Shown here piece by piece: positions 1 through 16,217 of a DNA stretch of 16,217 nucleotides (position 1 is its first letter; each line of letters begins with the position of its first letter). A program made the translations under genes and the position numbers. The notes under the pieces were generated by a model. It was not told where the DNA came from. It searched no databases and worked only from the letters and a program-made list of their open reading frames with translations. This stretch comes from a virus, in IMG/VR virus record IMGVR_UViG_3300029057_000032, positions 1 through 16,217 of that record. One strand, written 5' to 3'.

Positions 1-613
1 CTCTTAGTTTTACTCAAGTATCAACTGGCATCTCATTATCACAATAAGATAATCCTAAAATTCCAATATCTCTATCTTCTGATTTTAAATAGAATATTGC
101 TATCTTATTAACATCATTAGATTTAAATGTATAATACATTCTTCTATCTAATTCTTTTATATCTTCAACATCTCCAAATCATCCTCCTTTTTTAGATGTT
201 TCCAATATAAATAAATAATCAGATAATAGGAAGTCTTTATAGTGACTTGAAACTGGAGCAACTCCAGGTTCTGTTTCTTCACTATTCATAATTCCATAAG
301 TGAATGGTAATCCTCCTAATCCTGAACTGCCATTATGATACTCAATAACTCAAGCTCTATCTGCATTCGTATTTAAAAGATCTTTAAGGATATATCTAAC
401 ATTAAGATCCACTTCTTGTCGTATTACTTGATTAGTATTATGAACTGTTTCTATATAACTTACAACTTTATCATATATTATTCCTGGATTAGTACTTATA
501 ATTATTACATAAGAAATAAATATAAATCCAAATCCACCTTTAATTATTTTCCACAGTCCATATTTATCTACTCATTCTAATACCTTTCCAAACCAGTTTA
601 ATTTATTTTCCAT
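1..613 (-). CDS. Hypothetical N-terminally membrane-anchored protein. C-terminus runs off the window. Translatable only if TGA is sense (4 in-frame TGA codons).
   Basis: ATG at 611-613 overlaps the TAA of the upstream gene (TAATG, 611-615). Hand translation triplet by triplet gives 204 codons open to position 1 with no TAA or TAG. The only interruptions are TGA at 572-574, 350-352, 179-181 and 14-16. Product: MENKLNWFGKVLE[W]VDKYGLWKIIKGGFGFIFISYVIIISTNPG...ADRA[W]VIEYHNGSS...KKGG[W]FGDVED...PVDT[W]VKLR. It has one hydrophobic helix (GGFGFIFISYVIIIS). The standard-code track calls no ORF here. Confidence 0.7.
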
Positions 614-1038
614 TACATATTATCAGAACAAGTACCCAGAGTATTGTCTACAGCTAAATCAACTCTAACAAATACTCCAGTACAAATATCTTTGAACTTC
701 TGATAAAATGGAGTAAAAATTAAAGGATAAGAAATATCAACTTCTGGATATTGGTTATTAAATCGGTTAATTATATTAGTTAATGCTAATATTCCAGCTG
801 ATTGCTCTTCAAGCTGATTATTATCAGTTTCATCCCATCTTGCTATAAAATAGAGATTTAAAGAGTAAGTAATAGTATCCTCATCCATATTAAATGTATT
901 TGGAGTTATATAAAATACATTATATTCAATAGTTGGGATACTATTAAGTTCATATATATCCTTACTTCCTACAAAATTAATATTGGGTTCTTCAAGAGCA
1001 CAAGCTTTTAAATTGTTTATTAATTCAAAATACGTCAT
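613..1038 (-). CDS. Hypothetical small virion-module protein (141 aa). Neck or head-completion role is suggested by position only.
   Basis: Track ORF 613..1140 trimmed to Met35 (ATG 1036-1038), which lies 1 nt after the TAA (1040-1042) of the upstream gene. The longer start would overlap that gene by about 100 nt. The TAA stop at 613-615 overlaps the next ATG. Confidence 0.6.
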   Translation of the reverse strand: MTYFELINNLKACALEEPNINFVGSKDIYELNSIPTIEYNVFYITPNTFNMDEDTITYSLNLYFIARWDETDNNQLEEQSAGILALTNIINRFNNQYPEVDISYPLIFTPFYQKFKDICTGVFVRVDLAVDNTLGTCSDNM

Positions 1039-1039
1039 C

Positions 1040-1723
1040 TTACTTACTCTTTTTATTGTTATCACTTGAAGGGAAATCATAAGCTCTTTGCAGAGGACCT
1101 TCACAAGAATTATATCTCCAACCTTTACCTCTAGCTCCACCTAACCAAATAGTACAAGATGAACTTGAATACATATTTGGATACATATCTTTAAGAGGTT
1201 TATAAGAATACAATTCAGGAAAATCATTATAATATGTAATTACCCAATTTTGTAATCTCGTTTTAAAGAAATCTGCTTTATCTCTATAATATTTCTTAAT
1301 AAGATTAACTTGGCTAATATCAGAAGTTAAATCTTTCTCATCATCAGTCCTCATAACCCCAAAATTACTCAGCTTAAATGAGATGGGTATAGTAATCTCA
1401 CTTAATACTTGATAAAGTAAATAAGGCTGAATATAGTAATCTAGCAATTCTTTATATCTATGATTTTCTGGGTCATCTATTGAAGTAGGATCATAAATAG
1501 GAGGTTCTATTGGATGAACTGGTTTATTTGGATCTTTTCAATCAATTACTAATTTCTGAATCTTTTCTAAGAGCTTAGTTCCAATTAATGACTGAAGCTC
1601 AATATCTTGTGCAAGTTTAATTGCTGACTGAAGATATTTACCAGAAACATTATTGTCTAGATTAGATTCTGATTTTATATAATCTTCAGATATTAATAGT
1701 ACATTTCTATAATTATTTTCCAT
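1040..1723 (-). CDS. Head-tail connector/adaptor-like protein, 227 aa. Fusion of track ORFs 1538..1723 and 1040..1447 across a sense TGA at 1538-1540.
   Basis: ORF 1538..1723 stops at TGA (plus-strand tca, 1538-1540). The next 31 codons ([W]KDPNKPVHPIEPPIYDPTSIDDPENHRYKELL) run in frame, with no TAA or TAG, into ORF 1040..1447. The M at the start of that ORF is really an internal TTG Leu. ATG 1721-1723 overlaps the portal TAA (TAATG). The N-terminus (EDYIKSESNLDNNVSGKYLQSAIKLAQDIELQSLIG) resembles the gp6-like connector motif from memory, and the gene lies directly after the portal gene. Confidence 0.6.
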
Positions 1724-2805
1724 TATTCAACTTGTTTAGTATCAGCTTCATTAAGGCTAAATGGTGAAATTGTGATTGAATTCTGCATTCCAAAGATCTT
1801 ATCAAATGAATCACAAATCTCTTTCTGAATAGGTCTAATCATAGTTCTATTATAAAGCTTGAATGAAGATTCAAATTCTTGCTCATTAAAACCAGTTGAA
1901 TCTGAGTTAATTCCAAATAAGTTAGGATTAGCTCTGAAGGCACAGAATATTTGATCTCTGGTTCTCTCAGATAATGATTGATATTTCTCATCAAAATCAT
2001 CAGAATCTAATCTTTCAATAGTAGTCTTATTTGCCTCATCTGCATTATATGAAATCAATATTCTGCCAGCATTCTGATAACCAGAGAACTTCTCATTAAT
2101 ATTCCTCTCAATCTCCTCTCTAATTTCATCTGTAGGTTCCCCATTATTAAAGTTAATAATAAGATTACCCATAAATCCATTATTGATGTTATTTAAATGG
2201 AATTCATTAATATTTTTCTCAGTTTCGCAAGATAAAATAGCAGCCCCATAAACAGGAATAGGATATACTCCTCTTGTTATATAACCTTTATTATAAAATA
2301 TACTAGCTGGATTTTCATCCCCAGCTCCAAATTTTGGATATTTTATAGCTTTTACAGACCAAGCTGTCCAATCAGTTGCATAATATAATACATCATTCTT
2401 TTCACTCGACCTTACATTCATAAAATCAATATGATAGATCTCTGCAACTCTTCCGAGCATATCTCTAATTACTTGGATAGCATAACCTCCAAATATCATC
2501 TTATCAATAGTGATTTTTCTCATTATATCAACTATTGTTTCACCTTTCTTGTTTACAACTACTTCAAATCCTGGAGCATTACATTTAACATCGTTACCAA
2601 CAATAAAGTCAGCAGAACCATTAATAATGGATTGGAGAGTGGCAACATTTAAATATAAATCCCATAGATATAATGGATATTTGTTATCTTCTCCCCACAT
2701 TACATAATCTTTTCCCCTCACTTTAGTTTCTGTAGGTAATACGATATTACTTGCAATAAATGGATCAATAGCACTTAACTGAACTTTTGTTTTATTTTCG
2801 CTCAT
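1723..2805 (-). CDS. Portal protein (Phage_portal / HK97-type family), 360 aa
   Basis: Intact ORF ending in TAA, with an in-frame TAA two codons upstream of the ATG. The sequence ...YQNAGRILISYN...DDFDEKYQSLSERTRDQIFCAFRANPNLFGI... matches the remembered portal core motif (r..I..af.vPp.llG). The N-terminal segment LYLNVATLQSIINGSADFIVGN is also portal-like. All 4 Trp codons are TGG. Confidence 0.7.
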   Translation of the reverse strand: MSENKTKVQLSAIDPFIASNIVLPTETKVRGKDYVMWGEDNKYPLYLWDLYLNVATLQSIINGSADFIVGNDVKCNAPGFEVVVNKKGETIVDIMRKITIDKMIFGGYAIQVIRDMLGRVAEIYHIDFMNVRSSEKNDVLYYATDWTAWSVKAIKYPKFGAGDENPASIFYNKGYITRGVYPIPVYGAAILSCETEKNINEFHLNNINNGFMGNLIINFNNGEPTDEIREEIERNINEKFSGYQNAGRILISYNADEANKTTIERLDSDDFDEKYQSLSERTRDQIFCAFRANPNLFGINSDSTGFNEQEFESSFKLYNRTMIRPIQKEICDSFDKIFGMQNSITISPFSLNEADTKQVE

Positions 2806-3184
2806 AACTTACGTATGTATTAGGTTTGTCGTATTGATAATTATTATTCTCATAATCTCCAATTCTTATTAATCCTGTTCCCAATATAGGTATTGGTTTA
2901 CCAGCAACTAATATCTGAGTACCATTAGTAAGAGTATTATTATATGTAACCAGAATAACTGGATTGCCATATAACTCTGATCTAAATGGATTGTTTACAT
3001 CAACTATAACTTGAAATTTATTTGGATTAGTAAATAAAATATATTGATATTCACCGTCTCTCATTCCTTCTTGAAGTGTAATATCAAACTTATAGTAGAT
3101 ATTCTCAGAATAATTCTGATTTTCAAGATTAAATGTATAAACTTCTTTAGTAGTTGTATTTTGCATTAATAAAGTATAATTCAT
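2792..3184 (-). CDS. Hypothetical beta-rich protein, 130 aa. First gene after the intergenic terminator region.
   Basis: Intact ORF, ATG 3182-3184, TAA 2792-2794. It overlaps the portal start by 14 nt. I recognise no family. Confidence 0.55.
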   Translation of the reverse strand: MNYTLLMQNTTTKEVYTFNLENQNYSENIYYKFDITLQEGMRDGEYQYILFTNPNKFQVIVDVNNPFRSELYGNPVILVTYNNTLTNGTQILVAGKPIPILGTGLIRIGDYENNNYQYDKPNTYVSYERK

Positions 3185-3260
3185 ATTTTACAGCAATTTA
3201 CATTAGTTTTACATATCTTTTTCTTAAAATATAAACCAATTTACTAATGTATTAAAATAA

Positions 3261-3286
3261 TTAAAGGAGACCTAAGCCTCCTTTAA
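3261..3286 (-). terminator. Intrinsic-terminator-like hairpin downstream of the fibre gene cluster
   Basis: Minus-strand RNA: TTAAAGGAG-GCTTAGGT-CTCCTTTAA, a 9-bp stem with an 8-nt loop, followed by TTATTTTAAT. It lies about 55 nt after the TAA at 3340-3342, inside the largest intergenic gap in the window (3185-3339). Confidence 0.5.
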
Positions 3287-3339
3287 TGTCAAGTTTTTTA
3301 CTCACTCAAAGTACTAAGAAAAATAAAAACTGACAAAAA

Positions 3340-4305
3340 TTATGCTGACGCTAAAGTTCAGTTTTTAGATGTAGCTAATGATTTCTGTTCTTCAGTAAGT
3401 GCATTATAAACGTTAGTATAAAAAGTTAAAGTTTTGGTATCCTTTCCAGTTAAATCACTAACATTTGTAATAATATCGGTTACTGATTGACTATTTAGTG
3501 CTCTAAAATTTGTTAAATTCATACTTTTATCAGCTCCTTCAACACCCCCAAAATAAGTAACAGTAGTATTAGCAAATGCACATATTGAAGTTTTATTTAG
3601 ATCTTCTATTAATGTGCAATTATTTAATTTAATTTTTCCTACTGTTGTAACACCCTCATTATATGAATTAAAGTAATGATATAAAGCTAGTTGTCCATTA
3701 ATAACTTCAATTTCAGGAACATTACTGCTAACAGAATAAAAGAAAAATTGTAAAGATGATACACCAGTATCAACTTCATTTATCACTTTTAAAGTAGTTG
3801 GTAAATTAGAAGCATTAAAGAATGTTCTTATTGCATAATTTCTACTAGAGGGTAAGGGATTAATTAATTCTAAATTATTTAGTGTGCCTTGAAATCCAGA
3901 AAATGAGTAACTACCCCCAACATTAGTTCTTATATTATCAATATATATATTATATGTGTTTTGAAAGGCATATGAAGCATCATATACTTTAGACAGATCA
4001 ATATGACTTGATATATCTATTGTAGATATAAAATTAGCCCCATCAAATCAATAATTTATATTATCTGGAAGAGAATATTCTATATTATCATATTGCTCTT
4101 GTGTCATACTAGAATGTGCAAATGTTAATCCATAATCATTTAAATTAATCTTTCCTCCACCTCCAGAAATCTGTCCTATCTTATCTGCATAGCTTCTAAA
4201 GGTATCTGAATCTGATACAGCAACACCTTTAGCTACAATAGCATCTTTAATGGCACTCTTAGTACCTTCAAGATACGTTAATTTATCAGAAATTGTATTT
4301 GCCAT
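3340..4305 (-). CDS. Tail fibre / receptor-binding protein, paralog 1 (321 aa). It has a conserved fibre N-terminus, a BspA/DUF285-like LRR region and a shared C-terminal tail. Fusion of ORFs 4048..4305 and 3358..3786 with 2 sense TGA codons.
   Basis: TGA at 4048-4050 is followed by 87 in-frame codons without TAA or TAG, leading into ORF 3358..3786. The M at the start of that ORF is an internal GTG. TGA at 3358-3360 is followed by TLASA and then TAA at 3340-3342. The junctions read ...DNINY[W]FDGANF... and ...SLATSKN[W]TLASA*. The N-terminus MANTISDKLTYLEGTKSAIKDAIVAKGVAVSDSDTFRSYADKI is a motif I recall as typical of gut-phage tail fibres. Confidence 0.75.
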
Positions 4306-4306
4306 A

Positions 4307-4960
4307 TTAGATTACTTCACCATTAATTGTATCAAGAGTAGTTGAAATATTACCAATCTGAGCTTGAATAGCTGAAATTTCTCCATCTAACTCTGTCATC
4401 TTTGTATTATATGCATCTGTAGTTACATAGTTTGATAACTCACTTTTATCTGCTTTAAGTGCAACTTCATCTTTCGTAGCTAATCCAGATACATCAGGAA
4501 TCTTATTCTCTACAGCTGTAAGCTCTTCTTTAGTAGCAAAATCACTAGTATCAGGAATTTCTGCTTTAGTTGCATAGTTACTTAAATCTACAGATAATTG
4601 CAGACCTTCTCCATTTCTATGTAAAGATAGAGGTTGATTAGCTTGAAATACTTCCATTTTAGAAGTTTCTAATTCTTGAACCTCTCCTTTAAGATTAGTA
4701 ATCTCAGTATTAATTGGAACAAGTTTAGCATCAATAGATTGATCTACTAAAGGTGGAACTTGATCTTCAATACTTTCTGTTACTTTAGTATTAATTAACT
4801 CTTCTGCTTTCTCCTCAGAAATGTAATTACCTTTAGGTTGAAATCTTTCATCTGCTTCAATCTTAGTATAAGAACCAACAGGAAGTTGTCCAGGTTCAAT
4901 ACCACATTTCTTACTTACATAAAAAGTTTGTGTATTTTTAGTATTCTTAAGTATAATCAT
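4307..4960 (-). CDS. Tail fibre protein with coiled-coil region and short fibre repeats, 217 aa
   Basis: Intact ORF bounded by TAA. It has heptad-like stretches (ITNLKGEVQELETSK, MTELDGEISAIQAQIGNISTTLDTI) and repeated D-x-S-x-[FY]ATK[AE]E motifs. It shares the QLSVDLSxY motif with the 711-aa fibre. Confidence 0.65.
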   Translation of the reverse strand: MIILKNTKNTQTFYVSKKCGIEPGQLPVGSYTKIEADERFQPKGNYISEEKAEELINTKVTESIEDQVPPLVDQSIDAKLVPINTEITNLKGEVQELETSKMEVFQANQPLSLHRNGEGLQLSVDLSNYATKAEIPDTSDFATKEELTAVENKIPDVSGLATKDEVALKADKSELSNYVTTDAYNTKMTELDGEISAIQAQIGNISTTLDTINGEVI

Positions 4961-4962
4961 AA

Positions 4963-6078
4963 TTATCTAATTCGATTTATGCTCCAATTCTTTGAAGCGA
5001 TTAATGATTTCTGTTCACTTGTTAATTTATCATATGCAGTAGATTTGAATGATATACTTGTATAAGAGGCTACTGCTGTGCCAATAGATTCAGCTATAGT
5101 TTGTAATGAATCTGTAGATAAATTTGGAGATTGTGCAAAATAAAGAACTCCTCCTTTAGTTAAACTCTCTCCTAATCCATTTAAAGCTCCTACAGTTACT
5201 AATTCTGGACAATTTGCAGCAAAACTAGTACAATCTGTAACAAGATGGCAATCTATTTCTGGTGTAGCTGTTAATCTACTACAAGTACTAAACATATAGC
5301 TTATATCTGTAATTCCAGTAAAGGTAAAATTACTTGGAATAGTTGTTAGATATAATGCTCTATGAAACATATGATTACAATCTCCTTTAAAGGGAATATT
5401 AATCGTTATATTATCTATATTAGTAGCTCCATCAGCAGTTTCTGCAAATGCTCATTTTGGATCTACTAATACAAGATTTTGAAAATTATTCATTACAGAG
5501 AAATCATTATTATCTATTTTTACTCCAATAAATAAATAATTTGCACTTACTTCTTTAGTAGTTGTAGGTATTTTAACATTAGATAAAGTAGCACTATGTA
5601 TTGTTTGACCCCAAAATTGAAATTCACTAGACCATCTTCCATATGCTTCATTAAGATTAGTAATCTCCTGGTTATTTAGATCAAAATGTGATGTTTTAAA
5701 AAACCCTCCTTTTCTACTTAAATCTCCACTATTTAACTTTACATCTGCATATGTTTGAGCAGAACCTATAATACTACAAAGAGGTACACCATCTATATTA
5801 AGGGCTAATTCACTTAAATCAGCAGTAAAACTAATTACTGTAGAAGTAAGGCCAGATCCTCTACCCATTCAATCCCTTTGTATATCATTTATAGTTCCAT
5901 CATAACTGCTAAATACATAACTACAAGGATCAACTATTGTAGTGCCTTGAGGAACTGGATTAGCAACTGTAACTATTTGTGGATTACATATAGGCCAGAC
6001 TTTGGTACTGCCAACATAAATAGCAGTACCTTGTCTGTCACCTACATAAAATGTTTTTAAATCATCTCTAATATTCAT
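4963..6078 (-). CDS. Tail fibre / receptor-binding protein, paralog 2 (371 aa). Fusion of ORFs 5869..6078, 5452..5868 and 4963..5370 with 2 sense TGA codons.
   Basis: TGA at 5869-5871 abuts ATG 5866-5868 in frame (...DIQRD[W]MGRGSG...). TGA at 5452-5454 is followed by 27 in-frame codons (AFAETADGATNIDNITINIPFKGDCNH) leading into Met 5368-5370. The C-terminal part has BspA/DUF285-like LRR units (ITDISYMFSTCSRLT, VTDCTSFAANCPELV) and the shared tail LTSEQKSLIASKNWSINRIR. Confidence 0.75.
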
Positions 6079-6079
6079 A

Positions 6080-8215: not shown

Positions 8216-8216
8216 A

Positions 8217-8438
8217 TTATTTATTTTTATAAGATTCCTCTTGTTCTTTTAAATATCTTTCATTTGTTTCTGCATCAATAACCCTATAAATAGATATATC
8301 AAAGGTTAAAGGGCAATATAAAATAGTTGATGCACTATACTCTTTAATATCATCACCTTCTTTATATGAGGTGATAAAATATCCTTCATCAGAGTATAAC
8401 TTTATAAATATGCTAGTCTCAATATGTAAATGTTCCAT
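8217..8438 (-). CDS. Small hypothetical protein, 73 aa. A fibre assembly or chaperone role is suggested by position only.
   Basis: Intact ORF. ATG 8436-8438 overlaps the upstream TAA (TAATG). Its own TAA at 8217-8219 lies 1 nt before the next ATG. Confidence 0.5.
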   Translation of the reverse strand: MEHLHIETSIFIKLYSDEGYFITSYKEGDDIKEYSASTILYCPLTFDISIYRVIDAETNERYLKEQEESYKNK

Positions 8439-9625
8439 TATGCTAATATCCAGTTTTTATTAGTAGCTATTGCTTTCTGTTCATCTGATAATTTTGCCAG
8501 ATTGGTAGCTCCTAATGTTAAAGTTTTGCTATTCTCCCCTGTTAAATCAACTAATGCATTAATAACAGACATTAAAGAATCAGTAGTAAGATTGGTACTT
8601 GCTGATAGATATAATCCTGCTCTAAGCTGACCGTTTACTGTAAGATTAGTAATTCCACTACATTTTGAAAATATAGGATTTATTGAACTTTCTTGAGATG
8701 TGTATGATGGAATGTTTAATGTTACATCTGTTAATCTAATGCAATCTCCAAACATATTAGTAGTAGTTACTAATTTAGGAGCGTCTAAATTAAGTGTTTT
8801 CAGGCTATTATATCCAGATAAGGTACCTCTGCTAAACATATTAGACCCATCTGTTAATTCAGGCATTGGAATAGTGAATGATGTTAAATCAGCACATTCT
8901 GTAAACATATATCTGCCATCTTCTAATTTAGGCAATTGCATAGTGAACTCCTTAATTTTTGATCTTTGACATTTATATCTTCCATCAACTAAATTTTCTC
9001 AACCTACAACATTTGCAGGAACAGATGTTCCCGTAAACCTATATAAATTAACTACAGCTTGTGTAATATCATATGTATTCATTGGATTCGTAACATTAAC
9101 AGTTACATCAATAAACTCCATATAATCATATCCATCTGCAGGATGAATCATTGTAGTTCCATTCTCTGTAATAGTAACTTCTCTATGCTCCTCAACTGGA
9201 ATCTCTACATCTACTTCAATACTTGATAAACCTTGATAGCCAGCATCAGGTTTAACTTCAGTCATTGATAGGTTTTTATCTATTGTTATATGTTTCTCTT
9301 GTAAAGTAGGAGTTGGTACTGGAACATTTATTTGTGCAGAAACCTTCTCCATAACATCATAATCTGGATCAGGTAAAATATCTATTAATCCATTAGATGT
9401 AATTGTAATCTCTTTAGTAGCTTGTACTGTAGGAACAACAACATCAACAGATACATTTACTTTCGACATACCATCATAACCCTCATCTGGAGTTACAACG
9501 AACTCAGCATTCTGAGTATATTCTACAGACTTCTCCTGTAATTTACATTCTTGAGCAGCTAAAGCTTCAATATCTCTTGAAGTTGTATTCTTTGCTACTT
9601 CTGGTGTTGTATATTTAATAGCCAT
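8438..9625 (-). CDS. Tail fibre / receptor-binding protein, paralog 3 (395 aa). N-terminal tandem repeats plus a C-terminal BspA/DUF285-like LRR region. Fusion of ORFs 8999..9625 and 8438..8941 across TGA 8999-9001.
   Basis: TGA at 8999-9001 is followed by 19 in-frame codons (ENLVDGRYKCQRSKIKEFT) leading into Met 8939-8941. The bridging peptide LVDGRYKCQRSKIKEF is itself an LRR unit resembling the next one, LEDGRYMFTECADLTSF. This argues for one continuous protein. It ends ...LSDEQKAIATNKNWILA*. Confidence 0.75.
9086..9541 (-). repeat. Four tandem intragenic repeats of about 35-40 aa, consensus (I)T(I)xxNG...xPdxGYDgmSxVxVxVxVP
   Basis: The four copies align by eye: EKSVEYTQNAEFVVTPDEGYDGMSKVNVSVDVVVP, KEITITSNGLIDILPDPDYDVMEKVSAQINVPVP, EKHITIDKNLSMTEVKPDAGYQGLSSIEVDVEIPV, REVTITENGTTMIHPADGYDYMEFIDVTVNV. 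Confidence 0.7.
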
Positions 9626-9659
9626 TTTCTATAAAATATAAATAGTTAATTATCTGTCC

Positions 9660-9698
9660 ATAAACAAAATAAGGGGCAAGTAAATTAATACTCGCCCC
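9660..9698 (-). terminator. Rho-independent terminator after the tail-tube gene
   Basis: Minus-strand RNA: GGGGCGAGUA-UUAAUU-UACUUGCCCC, a 10-bp stem with one G-U pair (9673-9682 pairs with 9689-9698). It is followed by UUAUUUUGUUUAU. It starts about 10 nt after the TAA at 9709-9711. Confidence 0.75.
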
Positions 9699-9708
9699 TC
9701 TTCTGTTG

Positions 9709-10233
9709 TTAAGCACCTACAACACTTTGAATAGCTTCAGCACTCAACTCATAAGGATATGATTCAGAGTCAGTAGCTAAAGTCAGCGTATAAGCGTTCT
9801 GATCACCTTTTGCAGTACCAGTAACACCCGTACCAGCGGAAGCGCTTACATAGTCATCTTTTCCTAAGAACCAGTATTTGCCATTAGAATCTTCTACAAC
9901 AACTACAAGTTGTCCAATAGAAAGAGCAGCAATCTCGATTCTTTTCTTAGTCTCCATCTTTGTAAATACAAGAGCAAGCTCATTACTTACATAGTTGGTT
10001 CCTGCAGTTTCGTCAACGTTCAATGTTGAGGTTAGAGAACCAGTACCTTTGCGGAATTGGTAGTTATACCATTTAGCTGAAGACTCAAGAGTAATAGCTG
10101 AGATTTGATTAGTCTCATCATCTACAGTTACACTCTTAACATTATCGTACTGAGTAATCCATACCTGTTTGATACCACCAAGCGAAGATTCGCAATCCAG
10201 GGTAATACCAGCGATAGTTATTAAACAAGCCAT
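9709..10233 (-). CDS. Major tail (tube)-like protein, 174 aa
   Basis: Intact ORF directly after the capsid gene and followed by a strong terminator. It is beta-rich and its size fits. The segments LVVVVEDSNGKYWFLGKDDY...GTGVTGTAKGDQNAYTLTLA resemble siphovirus tube proteins as I remember them. GC is higher than in the flanking genes. Confidence 0.5.
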   Translation of the reverse strand: MACLITIAGITLDCESSLGGIKQVWITQYDNVKSVTVDDETNQISAITLESSAKWYNYQFRKGTGSLTSTLNVDETAGTNYVSNELALVFTKMETKKRIEIAALSIGQLVVVVEDSNGKYWFLGKDDYVSASAGTGVTGTAKGDQNAYTLTLATDSESYPYELSAEAIQSVVGA

Positions 10234-10271
10234 ATAATTTCAATCTTATTTAAAGTTAAACTCTATTGAAA

Positions 10272-11177
10272 TTAGGCTTTGGCACCAAGAACTACCTCAT
10301 CAGGGAATGCAACCTGTACGCCAGCGTTAAATTCAATAGCTAATCTAAATTCGCGGAAATCTTGTGAATACCACAATTCAAACTTCTCTTCATCGTTCAT
10401 CATATCGCAACCATAGAAGAAGTTCTTATCTAACTGACCAGCAACAATCTTATCAGTTCCATTAAGACCATTAACAGCGATTACTTTAACCTGCGAACCA
10501 GGAAGCATAATCTCACCATTAAGATTCTCACCACTATAGTGGTAGTAGTTCTTAGCAACTAACTCCTGGATAAATTTACGGAAAGTATCACTGCCAACTA
10601 AGATAGAAGCACCATCCAGAACCTTCTCAGGAATAGCGTTATAAACAGCCATAATGTCATCATAAGCAGATGCTCCAGTAATTACTACATCAACAACATC
10701 ATCAGCAGCACCAAGGATCTTTAACAGACCATCAAAATACTTCAGGTTAATTGTTTCAGAAGCAGTATCACCCTGCCAAATAGCAGTCTCAATAGCAGCC
10801 TTAACATTCTCAACTACTGCATTTACGAAATCCTCTTCAAAAGGAAGCGTCTTCTGACCAGCAGCTACTCGTACTTGATACTGAGTCCAGTATTTAAGCA
10901 TCTCTTTATCACAATATGCCATATTGATCTTAATATTACCAGTAGCCAGAATTCTCTGAGAAAGAGTCTGAGTTCCAGCTTCATCCCAACCACAAGCTAG
11001 GCCATCGCCAAACTGAATAGCAGTTGATAACAGGTTAAGAGCAGCACTAGTTTTGATGTCAGTTTGAAGATTGAACAACGAAGCACTCTTAGCCTTTAAT
11101 ACAGCCTCTTTAATAAGAGGAAGACGTCTCTGCTCTACATAAGCAGTAAGACTAGTCATTACAGGACTATTTGCCAT
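10272..11177 (-). CDS. Major capsid protein (HK97 fold), 301 aa
   Basis: Intact ORF immediately downstream of the protease and scaffold genes. Capsid-like features are ...AIWQGD...YFDGLLKIL... and the C-terminal FELWYSQDFREFRLAIEFNAGVQVAFPDEVV. GC is about 45% in the stretch I counted. All 4 Trp codons are TGG. Confidence 0.75.
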   Translation of the reverse strand: MANSPVMTSLTAYVEQRRLPLIKEAVLKAKSASLFNLQTDIKTSAALNLLSTAIQFGDGLACGWDEAGTQTLSQRILATGNIKINMAYCDKEMLKYWTQYQVRVAAGQKTLPFEEDFVNAVVENVKAAIETAIWQGDTASETINLKYFDGLLKILGAADDVVDVVITGASAYDDIMAVYNAIPEKVLDGASILVGSDTFRKFIQELVAKNYYHYSGENLNGEIMLPGSQVKVIAVNGLNGTDKIVAGQLDKNFFYGCDMMNDEEKFELWYSQDFREFRLAIEFNAGVQVAFPDEVVLGAKA

Positions 11178-11199
11178 AATTTTATAAATAATTTAATAA

Positions 11200-11802
11200 T
11201 TAACCAATAAAGTTTTTAAGCTTTTTATCAATAACAGGATTACCAGTCATTATTGAAGCTTTGCCTTCTATCTGTTCCTCAGCTGAAAATGCAGCACTCA
11301 TTTTGCTCATCTTTTCAACCGTCTTTTCTGTAGCTTCAGATTTACCCTCTAATTCAGCTACTTTCTTAACAAGCTTATCAACAATGTCATAAAGCTCATT
11401 AATTTCGCGATGAATTGCATCAATTGCATCAGTTACAGTTTCTTTGTCACCATCAGTAGCTACTTCAGGATCAACTGGCTCTTCAGCAGTTTCTACCTTG
11501 CGTTTTCCACAAGCAGCATCAACTTCTGCTTTAGCTGCTTCTTCTGGATCAACCTCAGCTTTAGGATCAGTTACAGACTCTACTTTACCGTCTTTAACAA
11601 CAATCGTCTTTCCATCCTCAGTTACATACTCACCATCCTCAGCAGGTTTGTATTCTCCGTTCTCATCCTGAACATATACATCCATACCAGCGCGTAAGTC
11701 TTCATCTGAATCCCAAGTAAGTACTGCCTTATCAGTTTTAATATCACTGAACTTTGCAAGCATTTTAGCCAATTCAAGCTTGATTCTTGTGAATTTGCTC
11801 AT
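11200..11802 (-). CDS. Scaffolding protein, 200 aa
   Basis: Acidic, low-complexity and coiled-coil-prone sequence (DPEEAAKAEVDAA..., INELYDIVDKLVKKVAELEGKSEATEKTVEKM). It lies between the protease and capsid genes. Confidence 0.65.
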   Translation of the reverse strand: MSKFTRIKLELAKMLAKFSDIKTDKAVLTWDSDEDLRAGMDVYVQDENGEYKPAEDGEYVTEDGKTIVVKDGKVESVTDPKAEVDPEEAAKAEVDAACGKRKVETAEEPVDPEVATDGDKETVTDAIDAIHREINELYDIVDKLVKKVAELEGKSEATEKTVEKMSKMSAAFSAEEQIEGKASIMTGNPVIDKKLKNFIG

Positions 11803-11815
11803 TTAATTAATAATT

Positions 11816-12409
11816 TTAATGTTTAACTCTTTTTATCTTCTTAATCATATTAAGGATCTCTTTTATTTCGTCATATTCATCAGACTTTCTCTCTAAAGTA
11901 AATAAACCTTCAATTGAGAACCCTTTAAACTTACCAGCTTTAATTGCATCCCAAATAACTTGATTATCTACTTTATAAGTGGCAAATAAAGAACCATCAG
12001 GAACATCCTGGAATTCAACTGGAGATATTCCTCTATTAATATCCTTTACATAGATTTCTTGTAGAGTAATTCCATTTAAATCAGAATCTTCTAAATGTTC
12101 AATATTTACATCTGTAGTTCTCTTATCATACAGCATCTTCTCTGCCATTTTACGAAGAGTTTCCTTATCATACTGTATGTAGTATTCTCCGAGTTTCTCA
12201 TCTCGTCTGAAAATTGGAGTATCACTTAACATTAAGCAAGATGTTACTAAATGCTTATCTTCATCCATCGAGAACTTCTGAGAATTACTAAAAGCAACCC
12301 AGTTAACTTGTGTAGCTGGTTTGCTTGTTAAAGCAACATATTCTATTCCATCACAATCATCAGTAATCACTGCCTGAAATAATGGAAGATCATTATAAGT
12401 AATTTCCAT
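11816..12409 (-). CDS. XkdF-like putative prohead serine protease (Peptidase_S78_2-like), 197 aa
   Basis: The segments ...DVNIEHLED..., ...DGSLFATYKVDNQVIWDAIKAGKFKGFSIEG... match the remembered XkdF-family pattern (vn.eH ... GsW...kV.d.e.W..vk.G..kGfSieG). The gene lies upstream of the scaffold and capsid genes. Confidence 0.6.
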   Translation of the reverse strand: MEITYNDLPLFQAVITDDCDGIEYVALTSKPATQVNWVAFSNSQKFSMDEDKHLVTSCLMLSDTPIFRRDEKLGEYYIQYDKETLRKMAEKMLYDKRTTDVNIEHLEDSDLNGITLQEIYVKDINRGISPVEFQDVPDGSLFATYKVDNQVIWDAIKAGKFKGFSIEGLFTLERKSDEYDEIKEILNMIKKIKRVKH

Positions 12410-12458
12410 TTTTATTAATATATAGCACTTTATAAATTTGTAATATTTTTAGAATATC

Positions 12459-12514
12459 TAATGTAACCTTTTTACTCATATTTTGTAGTTAATAAGAATA
12501 AAAAAGTTACATTA
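12459..12514 (-). promoter_or_regulatory. AT-rich inverted repeat between the tape-measure and protease genes. Either a weak terminator or a protein-binding site.
   Basis: The arm taatgtaaccttttt (12459-12473) pairs with aaaaagttacatta (12501-12514). This gives 14 bp with one bulged C and a 27-nt loop. It begins 8 nt after the TAG stop at 12522-12524. Confidence 0.4.
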
Positions 12515-12521
12515 AACATTT

Positions 12522-14837
12522 CTAGAATGAAGCATTAGATTCAGTAACTGCTACCTTAGTTTGAGCTGAAGTAATATCAGATTCAACAACATAACACTTA
12601 ACTGGATTATTAAGTTCATCAGTCTCTTTATTTCCAAGTAAATTTCGAGTATACTCAACAGGAGCTTGTGTAAGTGCAGATGGAGCGGATACTGAAGATG
12701 ATACATCACTACCAGATATTTCTTCATTTTCAATATTTTTAATTTGAAGTAATCCCATAGCAATAGCTGCAGCAGCAGCAATACCACCTAATACAGGACC
12801 TACTACTGGAATTCCTGCCATAGAGTTATAAGCATTCATTGCTGCAGAAGCGGTATTAAATACGGTAGATATTTTAGCTATAGACTTATAATTTTCCATA
12901 GCTTTTTCTCTCTCCTTTAATGACTTCTTGGAATTATTTGCCTCAAATTTATAGTTTTGAGCTACAGCATCACCTAAACTTCCTAATGCAGCAAAACTTC
13001 CTTGAACAGCAGCTACAATGTCTTTAATTTCATCTTTTTTAGCAGCCTTTATTTTTTCTCCATTAGCTACAATAGCATTTGCAGCAGCAGTATCATTTGC
13101 TTCTCTTTCTGCATTTAATCTTGCATACTCATTATTATACTCTTCTTGAGTTATTAAGCCATTATCAAACGATTCTTTTAAAGTGGTTTGTAATTCTCCA
13201 ATTCTTTTATTATCTCTTTCGTAGAATCCTAACTGTATTTCAAGTAGCTCATTAGATTGTGTTATTCTATCGTTCTTTTCACTCTTTATATCTCCCGCAG
13301 TCTTGTATTCGTTTCCAAGACCTGCATTATGTGTATATGTCTTATTATATTTAGTATCTAACTCAGATTGCCTTTGATCAAAAAATCTATTCTCTCGTTC
13401 TCTAAGTTGTTCTAAAGAATTAATTCTATTATTAATTTCTTTACGATACCGCTCGTTCTGATTGTCTAGATACTCTTTATCATAAGCATCATTTATTTGC
13501 TTTAATCTCTTTCTATATTCCTCAACTGTTATAAGCTCTTTATCTTTAGCTGTTTTAAGAGCATCTAATTGATTTTGATATTTGGTATTTAATTCATCTA
13601 ACTCTCTAGCTTCATCATCTAATAGCAGTTTTCTATTCTCTTCATAGAAATCATTGATAACCTTCAGTAAATCAGCGTTACGTTTCTTTGCATCTTCAAT
13701 ATTCTTTAGATAGTTAGCCTTAGCCTCTTCTCTGGCTTTACGCTCTGCAGATATTTCCATCAATTTAACCTTTTCATAAGTTTCTGAAGTTTTCTGCATT
13801 AAACTATTTCTCTTCTCTATATATGCATTGTAGATACCAGAAGCTTCGTCGTAAGCAGCTCTTTGATCATCATTTAACTTACTTAAAAAGAAATCAACTT
13901 CATTAGAACTAGTTTTTAATCCTCATTGAATCGACTTAGAATAATCTTCCCAAGTGTCATATCCAGATTTCTTAAACTCTTTTCTGAAGTATTTATTACT
14001 CTTAAGTATATCTGTAAATGAATCATTATAAGCTTTAGCTACACTTCCAAATTCCTGGGATATTTTAGCATTTAATTTACCTAATTCTTGAGCATAATCC
14101 TTTCAGATTTGTATTTCATTCTTTTTACCTTCAGCTAAATCTCTTTCTCTCTGTCTTTCTAATCAAGCAATTTCTGTATTAGCTTGTGCATAGCTAGTTC
14201 CTCATTGGTCTGTTATGTCTTTTAACCCTGAAATACTAATCTTTAAATCACCAATTCCAGATGCTGCTTTGATTGCAAAGTCTACTAACATTCCTAATGC
14301 TACTACTAATGCTCCAATACCTGTTGATATAATAGCAGTTCGTAGCACTCCCATCGCAACAGATAAACCTCCAGTAGCAGTAGTAGCACCAGCCATCGCA
14401 ACAGATAAAGCCTTAAATGATTTTACTCCATTAAGAACACCTTCACCTAAACCCTTTAATCCTCCAATTCCTTGAACTATAGCAATAGCTGCTTGAAGCT
14501 TAACCATAGTTTTCTGGAGATTCTCTGTATCTCTTCCAAATAAAGTAAATGCAGCACTTACAGCCGAAACTCCACCTGCAAGACCGCCAGCTACTTGGTT
14601 AATACTATCAAAAGCTTTAACTGCATTTACAGTCTTACCTTGCATAGATTCAGTAGCTACATTAAGCTTGTTTTGTGCACTTACAAGCTCTTCAAGTTTT
14701 TTGGAATAGTCAGAACTACCAATTTCCAATGATTCAAGTTCGTCAGTCAAGCCAGCTACTTGTTCTCGTAGCTGCTTGATTGACTTTGTACTTTTAGTAG
14801 TATCTATATCTATTACCTTTTTAATTTCTTCAGCCAT
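12522..14837 (-). CDS. Tape-measure protein, 771 aa. Fusion of ORFs 14202..14837 and 12522..13799 plus the ORF-less stretch 13800-14201. It carries 4 sense TGA codons.
   Basis: Hand translation of 13800-14201 is in frame with both flanking ORFs and has no TAA or TAG: ...ITDQ[W]GTSYAQANTEIA[W]LERQRERDLAEGKKNEIQI[W]KDYAQELGKLNAKISQEFGSVAKAYNDSFTDILKSNKYFRKEFKKSGYDTWEDYSKSIQ[W]GLKTSSNEVDFFLSKLNDDQRAAYDEASGIYNAYIEKRNSLMQKTSE.... The TGA codons are at 14202-14204, 14163-14165, 14103-14105 and 13923-13925. The protein has long coiled coils and Gly/Ala-rich hydrophobic segments (GIGALVVALGMLVDFAI, GIPVVGPVLGGIAAAAAIAMGLL), which are typical of tape-measure proteins. It is the only gene ending in TAG. 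Confidence 0.75.
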
Positions 14838-14839
14838 AT

Positions 14840-16217
14840 TTAAATAGTAATATTTTTAATAGTATCTGCATTTAAAGTAAGTTCTTCCTCATATTTAACA
14901 ACACTTGATAATTGTACTTCAAAATGGAATGGAACTCCTTTTTGAACATATAAATAGTACTCTCCAGTTGTTGCATCACAATATGTACTATCTACAAAGT
15001 TGTCATTATCTACATAGATATAAGGTTGTACATCTAATACTTTACCATCTGCATCTGTTACTTTTCCAGAAAGCTTTACTGATTTAGATGGATCAGGAGT
15101 TTGATAAAAATATACTTGTCCTAATCTTTCATAAATATCAGATTGAGCTACTAAACTTAGATAGAAGTTATCTTCAATATATTTAGGATTTTCATTATAT
15201 TCAATAGTCATAGTACTAATTCCAGGTAATCCTTCCATTGGTGAAATATTTGTAATCTTCAAATTATTATACCAACTAACTTTCCAAGGAACATTAGATT
15301 CTATAGTTACAACTTTACTTCCAGCTTCATACCCTACAGTAACTTCTGGGTCACTTACTTCTATGTATTTACCTAAAGTAGATACTCCTCCTATATAATT
15401 ATTGATGTCTTGAACTCTTATAAATTCACATCTAGTAGTTGCATCAGAATTAACATCATAAGCATCTATCTTATTTAATACCCAATAACTATCTTCAAAA
15501 TAGTAAAACTGTCTTAACATATCAAAGTTTACTTGTAAATCATTTAATTTTACAAAACAAGTAACTTTCTTAGTATTAACATCAAATTGATCAGTATAGA
15601 ACTCTTTCCAGAATTGAGAATAAATAACACTTTGTTCTGGATATGCAATTTTATCTATATAAATTTCTCTTGGTAATCCAAAATCCCAACTAGATATTAC
15701 ATAATTACTTGATATATTATATCTTATGAATTGTGGTAAAGAGGTTCTTTTAATTGCAATCTTAGCACCAGCTTCATTAGTTTCTCTAGTAGTATATAAA
15801 TAGCAAGGTTCAGAATCATTTAATACAGACATTTCTGTAACATCATCAGTAATCCAATATGTAATAGGATTGCCATCAATATCTTTCATCTCTACATTGC
15901 CATTATAAAATAGTAATGTCGATTTAATTTCTTCTAAACTTTGCTCATCATTATCTAATGAATAGAAACAAGTCTTTGCAAATATATCATTACCAGGAAC
16001 ATCTCACCACTCTGTAGTCTTAGATGAATCAATGAAATTTACTCCATAAAGATCCTGATCGTTTGTTTTTCTTTCAGTAGACGTAGAATGGAATAATTGA
16101 TAAGTAATATTATCATTTAGGAAGCAGGGAACTGGCGAACTTGAACTATTAAAATAGTTTCTATAATACTTATCTACATCTCTTGCAGATATTACATTTT
16201 CATATAAGTTATCTGAG
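14840..16217 (-). CDS. Tail / baseplate-associated protein with a BACON-like domain and a C-terminal CarboxypepD_reg-like beta-sandwich. N-terminus runs off the window. 1 sense TGA codon.
   Basis: The frame of ORF 14840..15889 stays open upstream to 16217. Every triplet was checked and there is no TAA or TAG. The single TGA is at 16004-16006 (...SSKTTEW[W]DVPGNDIF...). The BACON-like motif VTIESNVPWKVSWYNNLKITNISPMEGLPGISTMTIEYNENP falls within about 15104-15364. The CarboxypepD_reg-like segment SGKVTDADGKVLDVQPYIYV...TGEYYLYVQKGVPFHFEV falls within about 14885-15079. Confidence 0.7.

What the first reader, a model, noticed from the sequence alone, without database searches (positions are those of the whole stretch)
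1..16217. TGA is read as a sense codon: the phage late module uses a non-standard genetic code
Every break between co-directional track ORFs that I translated by hand is a single in-frame TGA. The same frame continues on the far side with no TAA or TAG.

There are 15 such codons, given as plus-strand tca positions:
- 14-16, 179-181, 350-352, 572-574
- 1538-1540
- 3358-3360, 4048-4050
- 5452-5454, 5869-5871
- 8999-9001
- 13923-13925, 14103-14105, 14163-14165, 14202-14204
- 16004-16006

Reading them as sense converts the fragments into 7 continuous genes of normal size and domain architecture. These are a 771-aa tape-measure protein, three LRR receptor-binding proteins, a connector-like protein, a BACON-domain protein and a membrane protein.

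Under this model none of the 16 complete genes terminates in TGA (15 TAA, 1 TAG). Coding density rises to about 97%.

TGG remains the commoner Trp codon, about 33 TGG versus 15 TGA by my hand count. This differs from Mollicute-style genomes, where TGA dominates. It fits a phage-specific recoding of late genes of the kind reported for gut phages (Ivanova et al. 2014; Borges et al. 2022).

Standard table-11 annotation would mis-annotate 7 of the 18 genes here.
Basis: seen in the sequence. Interest (0 to 1): 0.92.

Follow-up and report, generated by a model that had tools for sequence, protein, structure and literature searches.

The report
Gut phage reading TGA as tryptophan
This window is about half of a roughly 30-kb human-gut phage genome that reads the stop codon TGA as tryptophan, which is real and makes standard annotation chop up its genes; gut phages that do this are already known, and the odd point here is that the phage carries no tRNA to do the decoding.

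Summary
All 15 listed TCA triplets are in-frame TGA codons on the minus strand. Reading them as sense merges the fragments into 7 normal genes. Coding density rises from 85% to 97%, and no gene ends in TGA.

TGA means tryptophan (code 4), not glycine (code 25). In related phages these sites swap almost only with TGG. Eleven of the 15 sites carry TGG in some homologue. One TGA sits on the Trp of a C-terminal KNW motif conserved in two paralogues in the window and in distant homologues.

Two parts of the interpretation need correcting. First, the recoding is not confined to late genes. TGA is used across the whole ~30-kb genome, on both strands and in regulators and homing endonucleases. It is avoided in the capsid, scaffold-like, tube-like and helicase genes. 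Second, no suppressor tRNA was found in loci that together tile the genome.

The host is unidentified. Indirect evidence points to Bacteroidales. One variant shares a 2.5-kb tail-fibre segment, 95-99.9% identical, with TGA-recoded Zeta crAss-like phages.

Verdict: a new member of a known kind. The decoding mechanism remains open.

The parts
14840..16216 (-). C-terminal 458 aa of a 1149-aa virion protein (full length seen in L026 7961-11410). In-frame TGA at 16004-16006 (aa 71 of the partial protein). Stop codon TAA.
   Evidence: In homologues the codon at 16004 is TGG in 4, TAT in 6 and TGA in 1. No Pfam hit, so BACON is not confirmed.
12522..14837 (-). Tape-measure protein, 771 aa. In-frame TGA at 14202, 14163, 14103 and 13923 (aa 212, 225, 245, 305). 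Stop codon TAG.
   Evidence: A single PHROG tape-measure match (phrog_2854, E=2.7e-14) spans aa 44-709 and so crosses all four TGAs. Site 14103 is TGG in 3 of 6 homologues. Site 14163 is GGA in 5 of 6.
8438..9625 (-). RBP-like paralogue 1, 395 aa. TGA at 8999-9001 (aa 209). C-terminus ...EQKAIATNKNW(TGG)ILA.
   Evidence: Weak LRR_5 hit, E=2.4e-4, below the Pfam cut-off. Site 8999 in homologues: TGA 5, TGG 2, TTT 1.
4963..6078 (-). RBP-like paralogue 2, 371 aa. TGA at 5869-5871 (aa 70) and 5452-5454 (aa 209). C-terminus ...EQKSLIASKNW(TGG)SINRIR.
   Evidence: Site 5452 is TGG in 9 of 9 homologues. Site 5869 is TGA in 8 of 8.
3340..4305 (-). RBP-like paralogue 3, 321 aa. TGA at 4048-4050 (aa 86) and 3358-3360 (aa 316, the Trp of the conserved C-terminal KNW motif).
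   Evidence: Paralogue alignment within the window. Distant homologues (27-35% identity) keep ...KNWT(L/I)... at this position. Library entries P0137, P0138 and P0150 stop exactly at this TGA, i.e. they are code-11 truncations. Site 4048 in homologues: TGA 7, TTT 4, TGG 1, TCT 1.
1040..1723 (-). DUF6712 protein next to the portal gene, 227 aa. TGA at 1538-1540 (aa 62).
   Evidence: Pfam DUF6712, E=7e-11. Site 1538 in homologues: TGA 12, TGG 9.
2..613 (-). N-terminal 204 aa of a 216-aa membrane-anchored GAF-like protein that lies just upstream of the holin-like and M15 endolysin genes (both outside the window). TGA at 572, 350, 179 and 14 (aa 14, 88, 145, 200).
   Evidence: Homologues show invariant or near-invariant Trp at three of the four positions (aa 14, 88, 145) and Trp in most at the fourth (aa 200). 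Sites 350 and 179 are TGG in more distant homologues. The AF2 model (pLDDT 66) has one C-terminal alpha/beta domain containing three of the TGA-encoded Trp, and the top Foldseek hits against PDB are GAF domains.
10272..11177 (-). Major capsid protein, 301 aa. No TGA; 4 TGG. One of the genes that avoid TGA.
   Evidence: phrog_11320 and major-head hits. 0 TGA against 44 TGG in 11 relatives.
1723..2805 (-). Portal protein, 360 aa. No TGA in this window; relatives carry TGA at one Trp site.
   Evidence: Pfam Phage_portal, E=4.6e-16. At alignment column 55 relatives have TGG in 8 and TGA in 9.
3225..3339 (-). Intergenic element between the third RBP gene and the next gene, folding into two hairpins. 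Its 19-nt core GTGAGTAAAAAACTTGACA recurs up to three times per locus (three in the longest) in intergenic regions of relatives, always on the main coding strand.
   Evidence: fold z = -3.8.

Best explanation
The window is about half of a ~30-kb, 30% GC, tailed double-stranded DNA phage genome from the human gut, and in it UGA is translated as tryptophan (genetic code 4).

TGA is never used to end a gene. TAA ends 34 of 37 ORFs and TAG the other three. About 27% of Trp codons are TGA. They are spread over the whole genome and both strands: tape measure, receptor-binding proteins, terminase, endolysin, a lysis-adjacent membrane protein, a sigma/HTH-like regulator and homing endonucleases. They are excluded from the major capsid, scaffold-like and tube-like genes and from the 572-aa SF2 helicase-like gene.

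Shown here: the codon's sense meaning, its identity as Trp, its genome-wide distribution, and the absence of any detectable phage tRNA.

Inferred: the host is probably a Bacteroidales bacterium that uses the standard code. UGA decoding would then be a costly suppression competing with release factor 2, which would explain why the most heavily or earliest translated genes avoid TGA. The decoding agent is not a phage-encoded tRNA. It could be a host tRNA-Trp helped by an unknown phage factor, or something supplied in trans.
For: Frame continuity:
- All 15 sites are in-frame TGA.
- Coding density is 97.3% under code 4 against 85.4% under code 11.

Identity of the amino acid:
- Nucleotide alignments to 29 related loci put TGA (100), TGG (17), TAT (3) and GGA (2) opposite the window's TGA sites.
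- The window's TGG sites align with TGG (291) and TGA (29).
- In protein-guided alignments 11 of 15 sites carry TGG in some homologue; the rest carry TGA, or Phe or Tyr codons.
- The TGA at 3358 aligns with the Trp of a KNW motif kept in two paralogues in the window and in homologues down to 27% identity.

Continuity of homology and fold:
- One tape-measure profile match crosses four TGAs.
- One GAF-like domain contains three TGA-encoded Trp.

Independence from any one assembly:
- The same TGAs recur in dozens of contigs from IMG/VR, ENA, Logan and NCBI.

Genome-wide pattern:
- The composite genome has 37 ORFs, 17 of them with TGA.
- It has 29 TGA against 79 TGG, and no TGA stop.
- By family, summed over relatives: MCP 0 TGA/44 TGG; helicase 0/64; tube-like 1/38.
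- By contrast: HTH_50 regulator 11/1; membrane protein 75/45; GIY-YIG endonucleases 20/5 and 32/18.
- Reverse-strand genes also carry TGA.

No tRNA:
- ARAGORN found none in the window or in the loci scanned.
- An Rfam scan at E<=1 found no tRNA.

Host hints:
- The sample is a co-assembly of human faeces.
- The M15 endolysin is closest to those of Bacteroides fragilis phages (49-52%) and crAss-like phages (45%).
- None of 16 start codons has a Shine-Dalgarno motif.
- A 2.5-kb fibre segment is 95-99.9% identical to Zeta crAss-like phages, which Yutin 2021 lists as 'TGA|w'.
- The share of recoded genes (46%) lies inside the 26-71% that Borges et al. report for recoded phages of standard-code hosts. 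It is below the ~90% they report for code-25 phages on code-25 hosts.
Against: - No direct protein evidence exists. Everything rests on comparative sequence analysis.
- One site (14163, in the tape measure) has GGA in 5 of 6 homologues, which read alone would fit Gly.
- The host was not identified. Two scans of 185,579 species-representative genomes found no prophage or binned copy.
- TGA occurs in probable early and regulatory genes and there is no phage tRNA. That is most simply explained by a host that already reads UGA as Trp, so the 'standard-code host' part of the statement is uncertain.
- Avoidance of TGA in capsid and helicase genes could partly reflect shared ancestry, since the relatives are not independent samples.
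Confidence: 0.9

Rival explanations
1. The phage simply matches its host. The host is a gut bacterium that itself decodes UGA as Trp (code 4), so the phage needs no switch and no suppressor tRNA.
For: - No tRNA anywhere in the genome.
- TGA is present in regulators, in genes of the reverse-strand block and in terminase, so there is no clear standard-code early set beyond one helicase.
- No TGA stop in 37 ORFs.
- The Zeta crAss-like phages that share fibre DNA with it are also TGA-recoded, and no suppressor is listed among their tRNAs.
- New code-4 gut lineages with cell walls are still being found, for example in Eggerthellaceae.
- Cook et al. note that many code-4 phages simply match Mycoplasma or Spiroplasma hosts.
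Against: - TGG outnumbers TGA about 3:1 at 30% GC, and TGA is strictly avoided in the most expressed genes. That would not be expected where tRNA-Trp(UCA) reads both codons freely.
- A peptidoglycan M15 endolysin rules out wall-less Mollicutes.
- Endolysin similarity, the lack of Shine-Dalgarno motifs and the fibre exchange with crAss-like phages all point to Bacteroidales, where no code-4 lineage is known.
- Only 46% of genes are recoded, against ~90% for code-matched phages.
Confidence: 0.25
2. TGA encodes glycine (code 25), as in phages of Absconditabacteria and Gracilibacteria.
For: Site 14163 has GGA in 5 of 6 homologues. ORF structure alone cannot separate code 4 from code 25.
Against: - Across all sites, TGA exchanges with TGG 46 times and with GGA twice.
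- GGA sites do not align with TGA among the eight commonest partners.
- TGA sits on invariant Trp columns.
- The other substitutes are aromatic codons, TTT and TAT.
Confidence: 0.02
3. The TGAs are true stops. The fragments would then be pseudogenes, assembly or sequencing errors, separate small genes, or low-level programmed readthrough.
For: Some public pipelines annotate relatives this way, with strings of 80-200-aa fragments.
Against: - The same TGAs are conserved in many independent assemblies and change almost only to TGG.
- Fragments would lack start codons and would leave, for example, about 400 nt of a tape-measure gene non-coding.
- Domains and profile matches run across the sites.
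- Four successive low-efficiency readthroughs in an essential tape measure would yield almost no protein (inference).
- Selenocysteine is not supported: Cys codons (TGT, TGC) do not align with TGA.
Confidence: 0.02

Closest known systems
TGA-to-Trp (code 4) recoded gut phages (Ivanova et al. 2014; Borges et al. 2021/2022; Cook et al. 2024)
   Same: - Low GC content.
- In-frame TGA aligning to Trp.
- TGA abandoned as a terminator.
- Structural and lysis genes recoded.
- Coding density restored under table 4.
[quoted passage not shown]
   Different: - Much smaller (~30 kb) than the described TGA-recoded Agate, Jade and crAss-like genomes (127-200 kb).
- No tRNA genes at all, and no RF1 or TrpRS genes recognised.
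- Recoding is not concentrated in the late module. It is strongest in a regulator, homing endonucleases and lysis-adjacent genes, and absent from capsid and helicase genes.
Garnet, Amethyst and Topaz clades of small recoded phages (Borges et al.)
   Same: Genome size of 22-34 kb, a one-directional GC skew, most genes recoded, and one key gene kept free of the recoded stop: integrase in those clades, the helicase here.
   Different: The representatives of those clades shown in the paper are TAG-recoded, carry suppressor tRNAs and are often temperate. This phage is TGA-recoded, has no tRNA, has no integrase, and was never found in a bacterial contig. Membership was not tested because no sequences from those clades were available.
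Zeta-group crAss-like phages, subgroup zeta_12 (OGYM01000002, OLVX01000015; Yutin et al. 2021)
   Same: Human gut origin, code 'TGA|w', and no suppressor listed among their tRNAs. A 2.5-kb tail-fibre segment is 95-99.9% identical to one variant of this phage.
   Different: They are 168-169-kb genomes. Apart from the shared fibre segment there was no nucleotide match to this phage in the ~20 kb of each genome that was examined. In the tail-fibre region examined TGA outnumbers TGG. The small phage has a tape measure and an HK97-type portal, and its TerL is under 30% identical to any GenBank phage.
Mycoplasma and Spiroplasma phages (code 4 matching the host)
   Same: TGA is read as Trp and there is no phage suppressor tRNA.
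   Different: TGG remains the majority Trp codon. A peptidoglycan endolysin is present. The affinities are with Bacteroidales phages.

Membership tests
Code-4 (TGA to Trp) recoded phage | In-frame TGA codons interrupt otherwise continuous, conserved genes, and reading them as sense restores full-length genes and a normal coding density | tested here: met
   15 sites in 7 genes; 85.4% rises to 97.3%. A tape-measure profile match and a GAF-like fold both cross TGA sites.
Code-4 (TGA to Trp) recoded phage | TGA aligns with tryptophan in homologues | tested here: met
   46 TGA/TGG exchanges against 2 with GGA. 11 of 15 sites have TGG in some homologue. Trp columns are invariant or nearly so at most of the sites.
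Code-4 (TGA to Trp) recoded phage | TGA is not used as a terminator | tested here: met
   0 of 16 in the window. 0 of 37 in the composite genome. Only TAA or TAG across all gene families in relatives.
Code-4 (TGA to Trp) recoded phage | Phage-encoded suppressor tRNA with anticodon UCA. This is frequent but not universal: 15-35% of code-4 phages have one. | tested here: not met
   No tRNA found by ARAGORN in the window or in the loci scanned, which together tile the genome. An Rfam scan at E<=1 found none.
Code-4 (TGA to Trp) recoded phage | The host uses the standard code, i.e. the recoding is phage-specific | tested here: inconclusive
   No host genome was found. Indirect pointers to Bacteroidales: endolysin similarity, no Shine-Dalgarno motifs, and fibre exchange with crAss-like phages.
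Late-gene-restricted recoding (the model for crAss-like and Agate phages) | Recoded stops are concentrated in structural and lysis genes, while early and replication genes use the standard code | tested here: not met
   The TGA fraction of Trp codons is about 0.49 in small regulator and endonuclease genes and about 0.33 in structural and lysis genes. Reverse-strand genes carry TGA. Only the helicase, MCP, scaffold-like and tube-like genes are free of it.
Code 25 (TGA to Gly) phages of Absconditabacteria and Gracilibacteria | TGA aligns with glycine | tested here: not met
   This holds at only one of 15 sites, 14163.
Mollicute phage using the host's code 4 | TGA is the dominant Trp codon, and the host has no cell wall so no peptidoglycan hydrolase is needed | tested here: not met
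   29 TGA against 79 TGG. A Peptidase_M15_3 endolysin lies next to a holin-like gene.
Selenocysteine insertion | TGA aligns with Cys or Sec, and a SECIS element is present | tested here: not met
   TGT and TGC sites do not align with TGA. TGA aligns with Trp. No Rfam SECIS hit.

The most novel reading that the evidence does not exclude
A ~30-kb phage with no tRNA genes needs UGA read as Trp for 17 of its 37 genes, including regulators. It has recently exchanged tail-fibre DNA with TGA-recoded Zeta crAss-like phages of ~169 kb, which themselves have no suppressor listed among their tRNAs.

This would fit a code change that no phage tRNA supplies. Either an unrecognised gut bacterial lineage with a cell wall already reads UGA as Trp, or there is a trans-acting, non-tRNA mechanism. 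The small phage could share such a mechanism with co-infecting crAss-like phages or borrow it from them. Examples would be inhibition of release factor 2 or alteration of the host's tRNA-Trp.
Probability: 0.2. Interest if true: 0.8.

Novelty: new member of a known kind. Interest (0 to 1): 0.42.

Why it matters
Practical consequence. Table-11 annotation breaks 7 of the 17 genes in the window into fragments. Public JGI and NCBI gene calls on close relatives are fragmented in exactly this way, while Logan and ENA calls made with a code-4 model are full length. This phage family is very common in human gut data: the capsid protein has 4,309 homologues, always on contigs of about 30 kb. The annotation error is therefore repeated many times.

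Scientific consequence. Code-4 phages are rare in the human gut. Cook et al. count 46 of the UHGV vOTUs, about 0.08%. How UGA is decoded when there is no suppressor tRNA is an acknowledged open question (Yutin 2021; Borges 2021).

A 37-gene genome that depends on UGA decoding and has no tRNA is about the smallest system in which that question could be put to experiment.

Tried and rejected
- Megablast of the whole window against GenBank phages found no match. tblastn of the capsid protein also found none. TerL is under 30% identical to anything there. There is therefore no cultured relative and no host label.

- Two scans of species-representative bacterial genomes, one with TerL and one with an MCP alignment, found nothing. 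There is no prophage, and no host could be named.

- The suppressor tRNA search with ARAGORN on the window and 56 fetched loci (the later TerL- and MCP-derived loci were not scanned), plus a permissive Rfam scan, found none.

I used the TGA-free middle fragment instead.

- I chased a 148-kb IMG/VR contig that carries the phage's TerL, hoping it was a prophage in host DNA. It turned out to be joined to a Zeta crAss-like phage through a shared 2.5-kb fibre segment. This is probably a chimeric assembly or a recombinant, not a host junction. A conserved 26-mer from the MCP gene did not retrieve further pieces of that contig.

- Pfam did not confirm BACON in the window's protein. A weak BACON hit (E=0.0018) lies in the neighbouring 734-aa protein, outside the window.

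- An apparent TAA-to-TGA change at the portal stop in two relatives was an alignment artefact next to an inserted endonuclease gene.

- The base following TGA showed no clear bias in the window: 8 G, 4 A, 3 T. The sample is too small to interpret.

Full report
**1. Checking the observation**

All genes in the window lie on the minus strand. Each of the 15 listed plus-strand triplets is TCA, which is TGA on the coding strand.

With TAA and TAG as the only stops, the minus strand resolves into 17 contiguous ORFs. The 15 TGAs fall inside 7 of them:
- the tape measure: 14202, 14163, 14103, 13923
- three paralogous receptor-binding-like genes: 8999; 5869 and 5452; 4048 and 3358
- a DUF6712 gene: 1538
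- the 3' part of a 1149-aa gene: 16004
- the 5' part of a 216-aa membrane-protein gene: 572, 350, 179, 14

The 16 stops inside the window are 15 TAA and 1 TAG. In-frame Trp codons are 33 TGG and 15 TGA. ORF coverage is 85.4% under code 11, 86.0% under code 15 and 97.3% under code 4/25. In the two off-frames of these genes TAA plus TAG make up 7-9% of codons. Frames that stay open past 15 successive TGAs are therefore not chance.

**2. Which amino acid**

Exact-pattern scans of IMG/VR returned dozens of related contigs of about 29-33 kb, mostly from sample 3300045988. That sample is a co-assembly of human faecal samples.

- Opposite the window's TGA sites, nucleotide alignments to these relatives put TGA (100), TGG (17), TAT (3) and GGA (2).
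- Opposite its TGG sites they put TGG (291) and TGA (29).
- Protein-guided alignments that reach more distant homologues show TGG at 11 of the 15 sites. The other codons seen are TTT and TAT, with one TCT and one gap.
- One site in the tape measure, 14163, has GGA in 5 of 6 homologues.
- Inside the window, the third RBP paralogue ends ...SKNw(TGA)TLASA, where the other two have ...NKNW(TGG)ILA and ...SKNW(TGG)SINRIR.
- An exhaustive HMMER search showed the ...KNWT(L/I)... tail is kept in homologues down to 27% identity.
- Several library entries stop exactly at that TGA, which marks them as code-11 truncations.
- For the membrane protein, homologues have invariant or near-invariant Trp at three of the four TGA positions and Trp in most at the fourth.
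- The codons there are TGG at two of the sites in 68%-identical relatives.

TGA therefore means Trp (code 4). It does not mean Gly (code 25) and it is not selenocysteine.

**3. Continuity across the junctions**

A single tape-measure PHROG match covers aa 44-709 and so crosses four TGAs.

An AlphaFold2 model of a 97%-identical homologue of the membrane protein has a mean pLDDT of 66. It shows an N-terminal helical membrane segment and one C-terminal alpha/beta domain. The top-ranked PDB matches are GAF domains. Three of the TGA-encoded Trp lie within that domain.

**4. The rest of the genome**

Overlapping loci close a circle of about 29.7 kb. On the main strand the order is:
- small regulators and homing endonucleases
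- TerL
- a 734-aa and a 1149-aa virion protein
- the tape measure
- a 197-aa gene of unknown function, a scaffold-like gene and the MCP
- a tube-like gene
- RBPs and fibres
- the portal
- the membrane GAF-like protein, a holin-like gene and an M15 endolysin

A short reverse-strand block follows, holding a 572-aa SF2 helicase-like gene and a few small ORFs.

In the composite genome 17 of 37 ORFs carry TGA. Trp codons are 29 TGA and 79 TGG. Stops are 34 TAA, 3 TAG and 0 TGA.

TGA use is not a late-gene trait. Summed over relatives, the TGA fraction of Trp codons is about 0.49 in the small regulator and endonuclease genes and about 0.33 in the structural and lysis genes. Reverse-strand genes also carry TGA.

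The real contrast is between individual genes:

| Gene family | TGA | TGG |
|---|---|---|
| MCP | 0 | 44 |
| Scaffold-like | 0 | 10 |
| Tube-like | 1 | 38 |
| Helicase | 0 | 64 |
| HTH_50 regulator | 11 | 1 |
| Membrane GAF-like protein | 75 | 45 |
| GIY-YIG endonucleases | 20 and 32 | 5 and 18 |

I read this as avoidance of a costly codon in genes that must be translated heavily or early. That reading is an inference, and the relatives are not independent samples.

**5. Mechanism**

ARAGORN found no tRNA in the window or in the loci scanned, which together tile the genome. A permissive Rfam scan found no tRNA-like hit. Pfam and PHROG scans found no release factor or aminoacyl-tRNA synthetase.

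This is not unusual. Borges et al. found suppressors in 35% of code-4 phages and Cook et al. in 15%. Yutin et al. also note the mismatch between recoding and suppressor tRNAs. It does leave the decoding agent unknown.

**6. Host**

No prophage or binned copy exists in 185,579 species-representative genomes. The capsid's 4,309 homologues sit only on contigs of 34 kb or less, which suggests a non-integrating phage. The indirect evidence is:
- The endolysin is a peptidoglycan M15 peptidase. It is closest to those of Bacteroides fragilis phages (49-52%) and crAss-like phages (45%).
- None of 16 start codons has a Shine-Dalgarno motif. From my own knowledge, that is typical of Bacteroidota.
- One variant of the phage shares a 2.5-kb tail-fibre segment, 95-99.9% identical, with large human-gut contigs.
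- Two of those contigs, OGYM01000002 and OLVX01000015, are listed by Yutin et al. as circular Zeta-group crAss-like genomes of 168-169 kb with code 'TGA|w'. No suppressor appears among their listed tRNAs.
- A neighbouring gene on those contigs matches crAss-like phages and a Bacteroides phage.
- Predicted hosts of Zeta crAss-like phages are mostly Bacteroidales.

The pieces of those large genomes that I hold are themselves TGA-sense, with TGA outnumbering TGG. The 148-kb and 175-kb contigs that join the two phages are probably chimeras or recombinants through this shared repeat.

**7. Weighing the explanations**

That TGA is read as Trp is close to certain.

Whether the host uses the standard code is not settled. 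These points favour a standard-code host:
- TGG is the majority Trp codon at 30% GC.
- The most expressed genes strictly avoid TGA.
- Only 46% of genes are recoded, within the 26-71% that Borges et al. report for standard-code hosts and below ~90% for code-matched phages.
- The affinities are with Bacteroidales phages.

These points favour a host that already reads UGA as Trp:
- There is no tRNA.
- Regulators carry TGA.
- There is no TGA stop.
- The same situation holds in the crAss-like phages that exchange DNA with this one.

I put the code-matched-host rival at about 0.25.

**8. Comparison with what is known, and verdict**

Recoded gut phages have been known since Ivanova 2014. They have been surveyed by Yutin 2021, Borges 2021/2022 and Cook 2024. 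Gene callers with a code-4 model already produce full-length proteins for relatives of this phage, whereas table-11 pipelines fragment them.

This is therefore a new member of a known kind. Its particular features are a small, tRNA-free genome, genome-wide rather than late-restricted recoding, gene-specific avoidance of TGA, and recent fibre exchange with TGA-recoded Zeta crAss-like phages.

The restriction to late genes does not. The standard-code host remains an inference.

Noticed in passing
L075 1-2516 (IMGVR_UViG_3300045988_175865) against L095, L096, L097, L103, L109 at 9941-12456; also L111 10000-12255. The corresponding gene in the window is the 711-aa fibre at 6080-8215.: One variant of the phage carries a 2.5-kb tail-fibre segment that is 95-99.9% identical to part of a 1545-aa fibre gene of Zeta-group crAss-like phages of ~169 kb (OGYM01000002, OLVX01000015; code 'TGA|w' in Yutin 2021). 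Elsewhere in the ~20-kb pieces of those genomes that were examined there was no nucleotide match to this phage. Two very long contigs (148 kb and 175 kb) join the two phages through this segment. They are probably chimeras or recombinants.
   Followed up: partly
window 3225-3339 (minus strand); core at 3287-3306; also for example L031 6681, 14128 and 20288: A conserved intergenic element with the core GTGAGTAAAAAACTTGACA recurs up to three times per locus (three in the longest loci), always on the main strand between gene blocks. It folds into a 47-nt hairpin followed by a terminator-like hairpin (z = -3.8). It may be a promoter/terminator unit or another regulatory site.
   Followed up: partly
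window 2-613 (minus strand), continuing outside the window (L022 11642-12295): The gene with the most TGAs (4 TGA, 2 TGG) encodes an N-terminal membrane helix plus a GAF-like domain. It sits just upstream of a 53-aa holin-like gene and the M15 endolysin. The TGA at codon 14 is kept as TGA in 20 of 21 homologues, down to 48% identity, whereas the sites at codons 88 and 145 flip to TGG in some. This could be a checkpoint on expression of the lysis genes.
   Followed up: partly
window 3340-4305, 4963-6078 and 8438-9625 (minus strand): The three RBP-like paralogues share a C-terminal tail, ...LT(D/E)EQK.....KNW.... Homologues of the third paralogue keep the first ~50 aa and the last ~40 aa nearly identical while the central LRR-like part is replaced wholesale (P0136, P0140, P0141, P0148). 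This looks like cassette-style swapping of the receptor-binding part.
   Followed up: partly
L022 12295-12879 and 13962-14594; L031 5103-5624, 7181-7828 and 16625-17110; absent from the window: GIY-YIG and HNH homing endonuclease genes are inserted at different places in different relatives, which explains much of the mosaic identity pattern. They have the highest TGA fractions (0.5-0.8). That suggests they circulate among genomes that use code 4.
   Followed up: no
window, upstream of all 16 start codons: No Shine-Dalgarno-like motif (GGAG, GAGG, AGGA) lies within 20 nt upstream of any start. The upstream regions are A/T-rich instead. This is consistent with translation initiation of the Bacteroidota type.
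   Followed up: partly
window 9500-11500: GC content rises to 0.37-0.39 over the capsid and tube-like genes, against 0.27-0.32 elsewhere. This is the same stretch that has no TGA codons.
   Followed up: no
window 14163-14165: This single TGA, in the tape measure, corresponds to GGA (Gly) in 5 of 6 homologues. It is the only site that, taken alone, would suggest code 25. Most likely it is a G-to-T change in a weakly constrained coiled-coil region.
   Followed up: yes
L035, L036, L037 compared with L031-L034: Public gene calls for near-identical relatives disagree. The JGI and NCBI metagenome calls, and one ENA/JGI record (L035), used table 11 and give strings of 80-200-aa fragments. The Logan, one ENA and one JGI (L033) calls used a TGA-sense model and give the full 734-, 1149- and 771-aa proteins.
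   Followed up: yes
L022 8529-10247 (plus strand of that locus; outside the window): The 572-aa SF2 helicase-like gene (DEYH box, QxxGRxxR motif) is the only large gene on the opposite strand. It has no TGA at any of its Trp codons in the 13 copies found (9 distinct sequences). Pfam does not recognise it. It may be the one large product that can be made before any change in decoding.
   Followed up: partly
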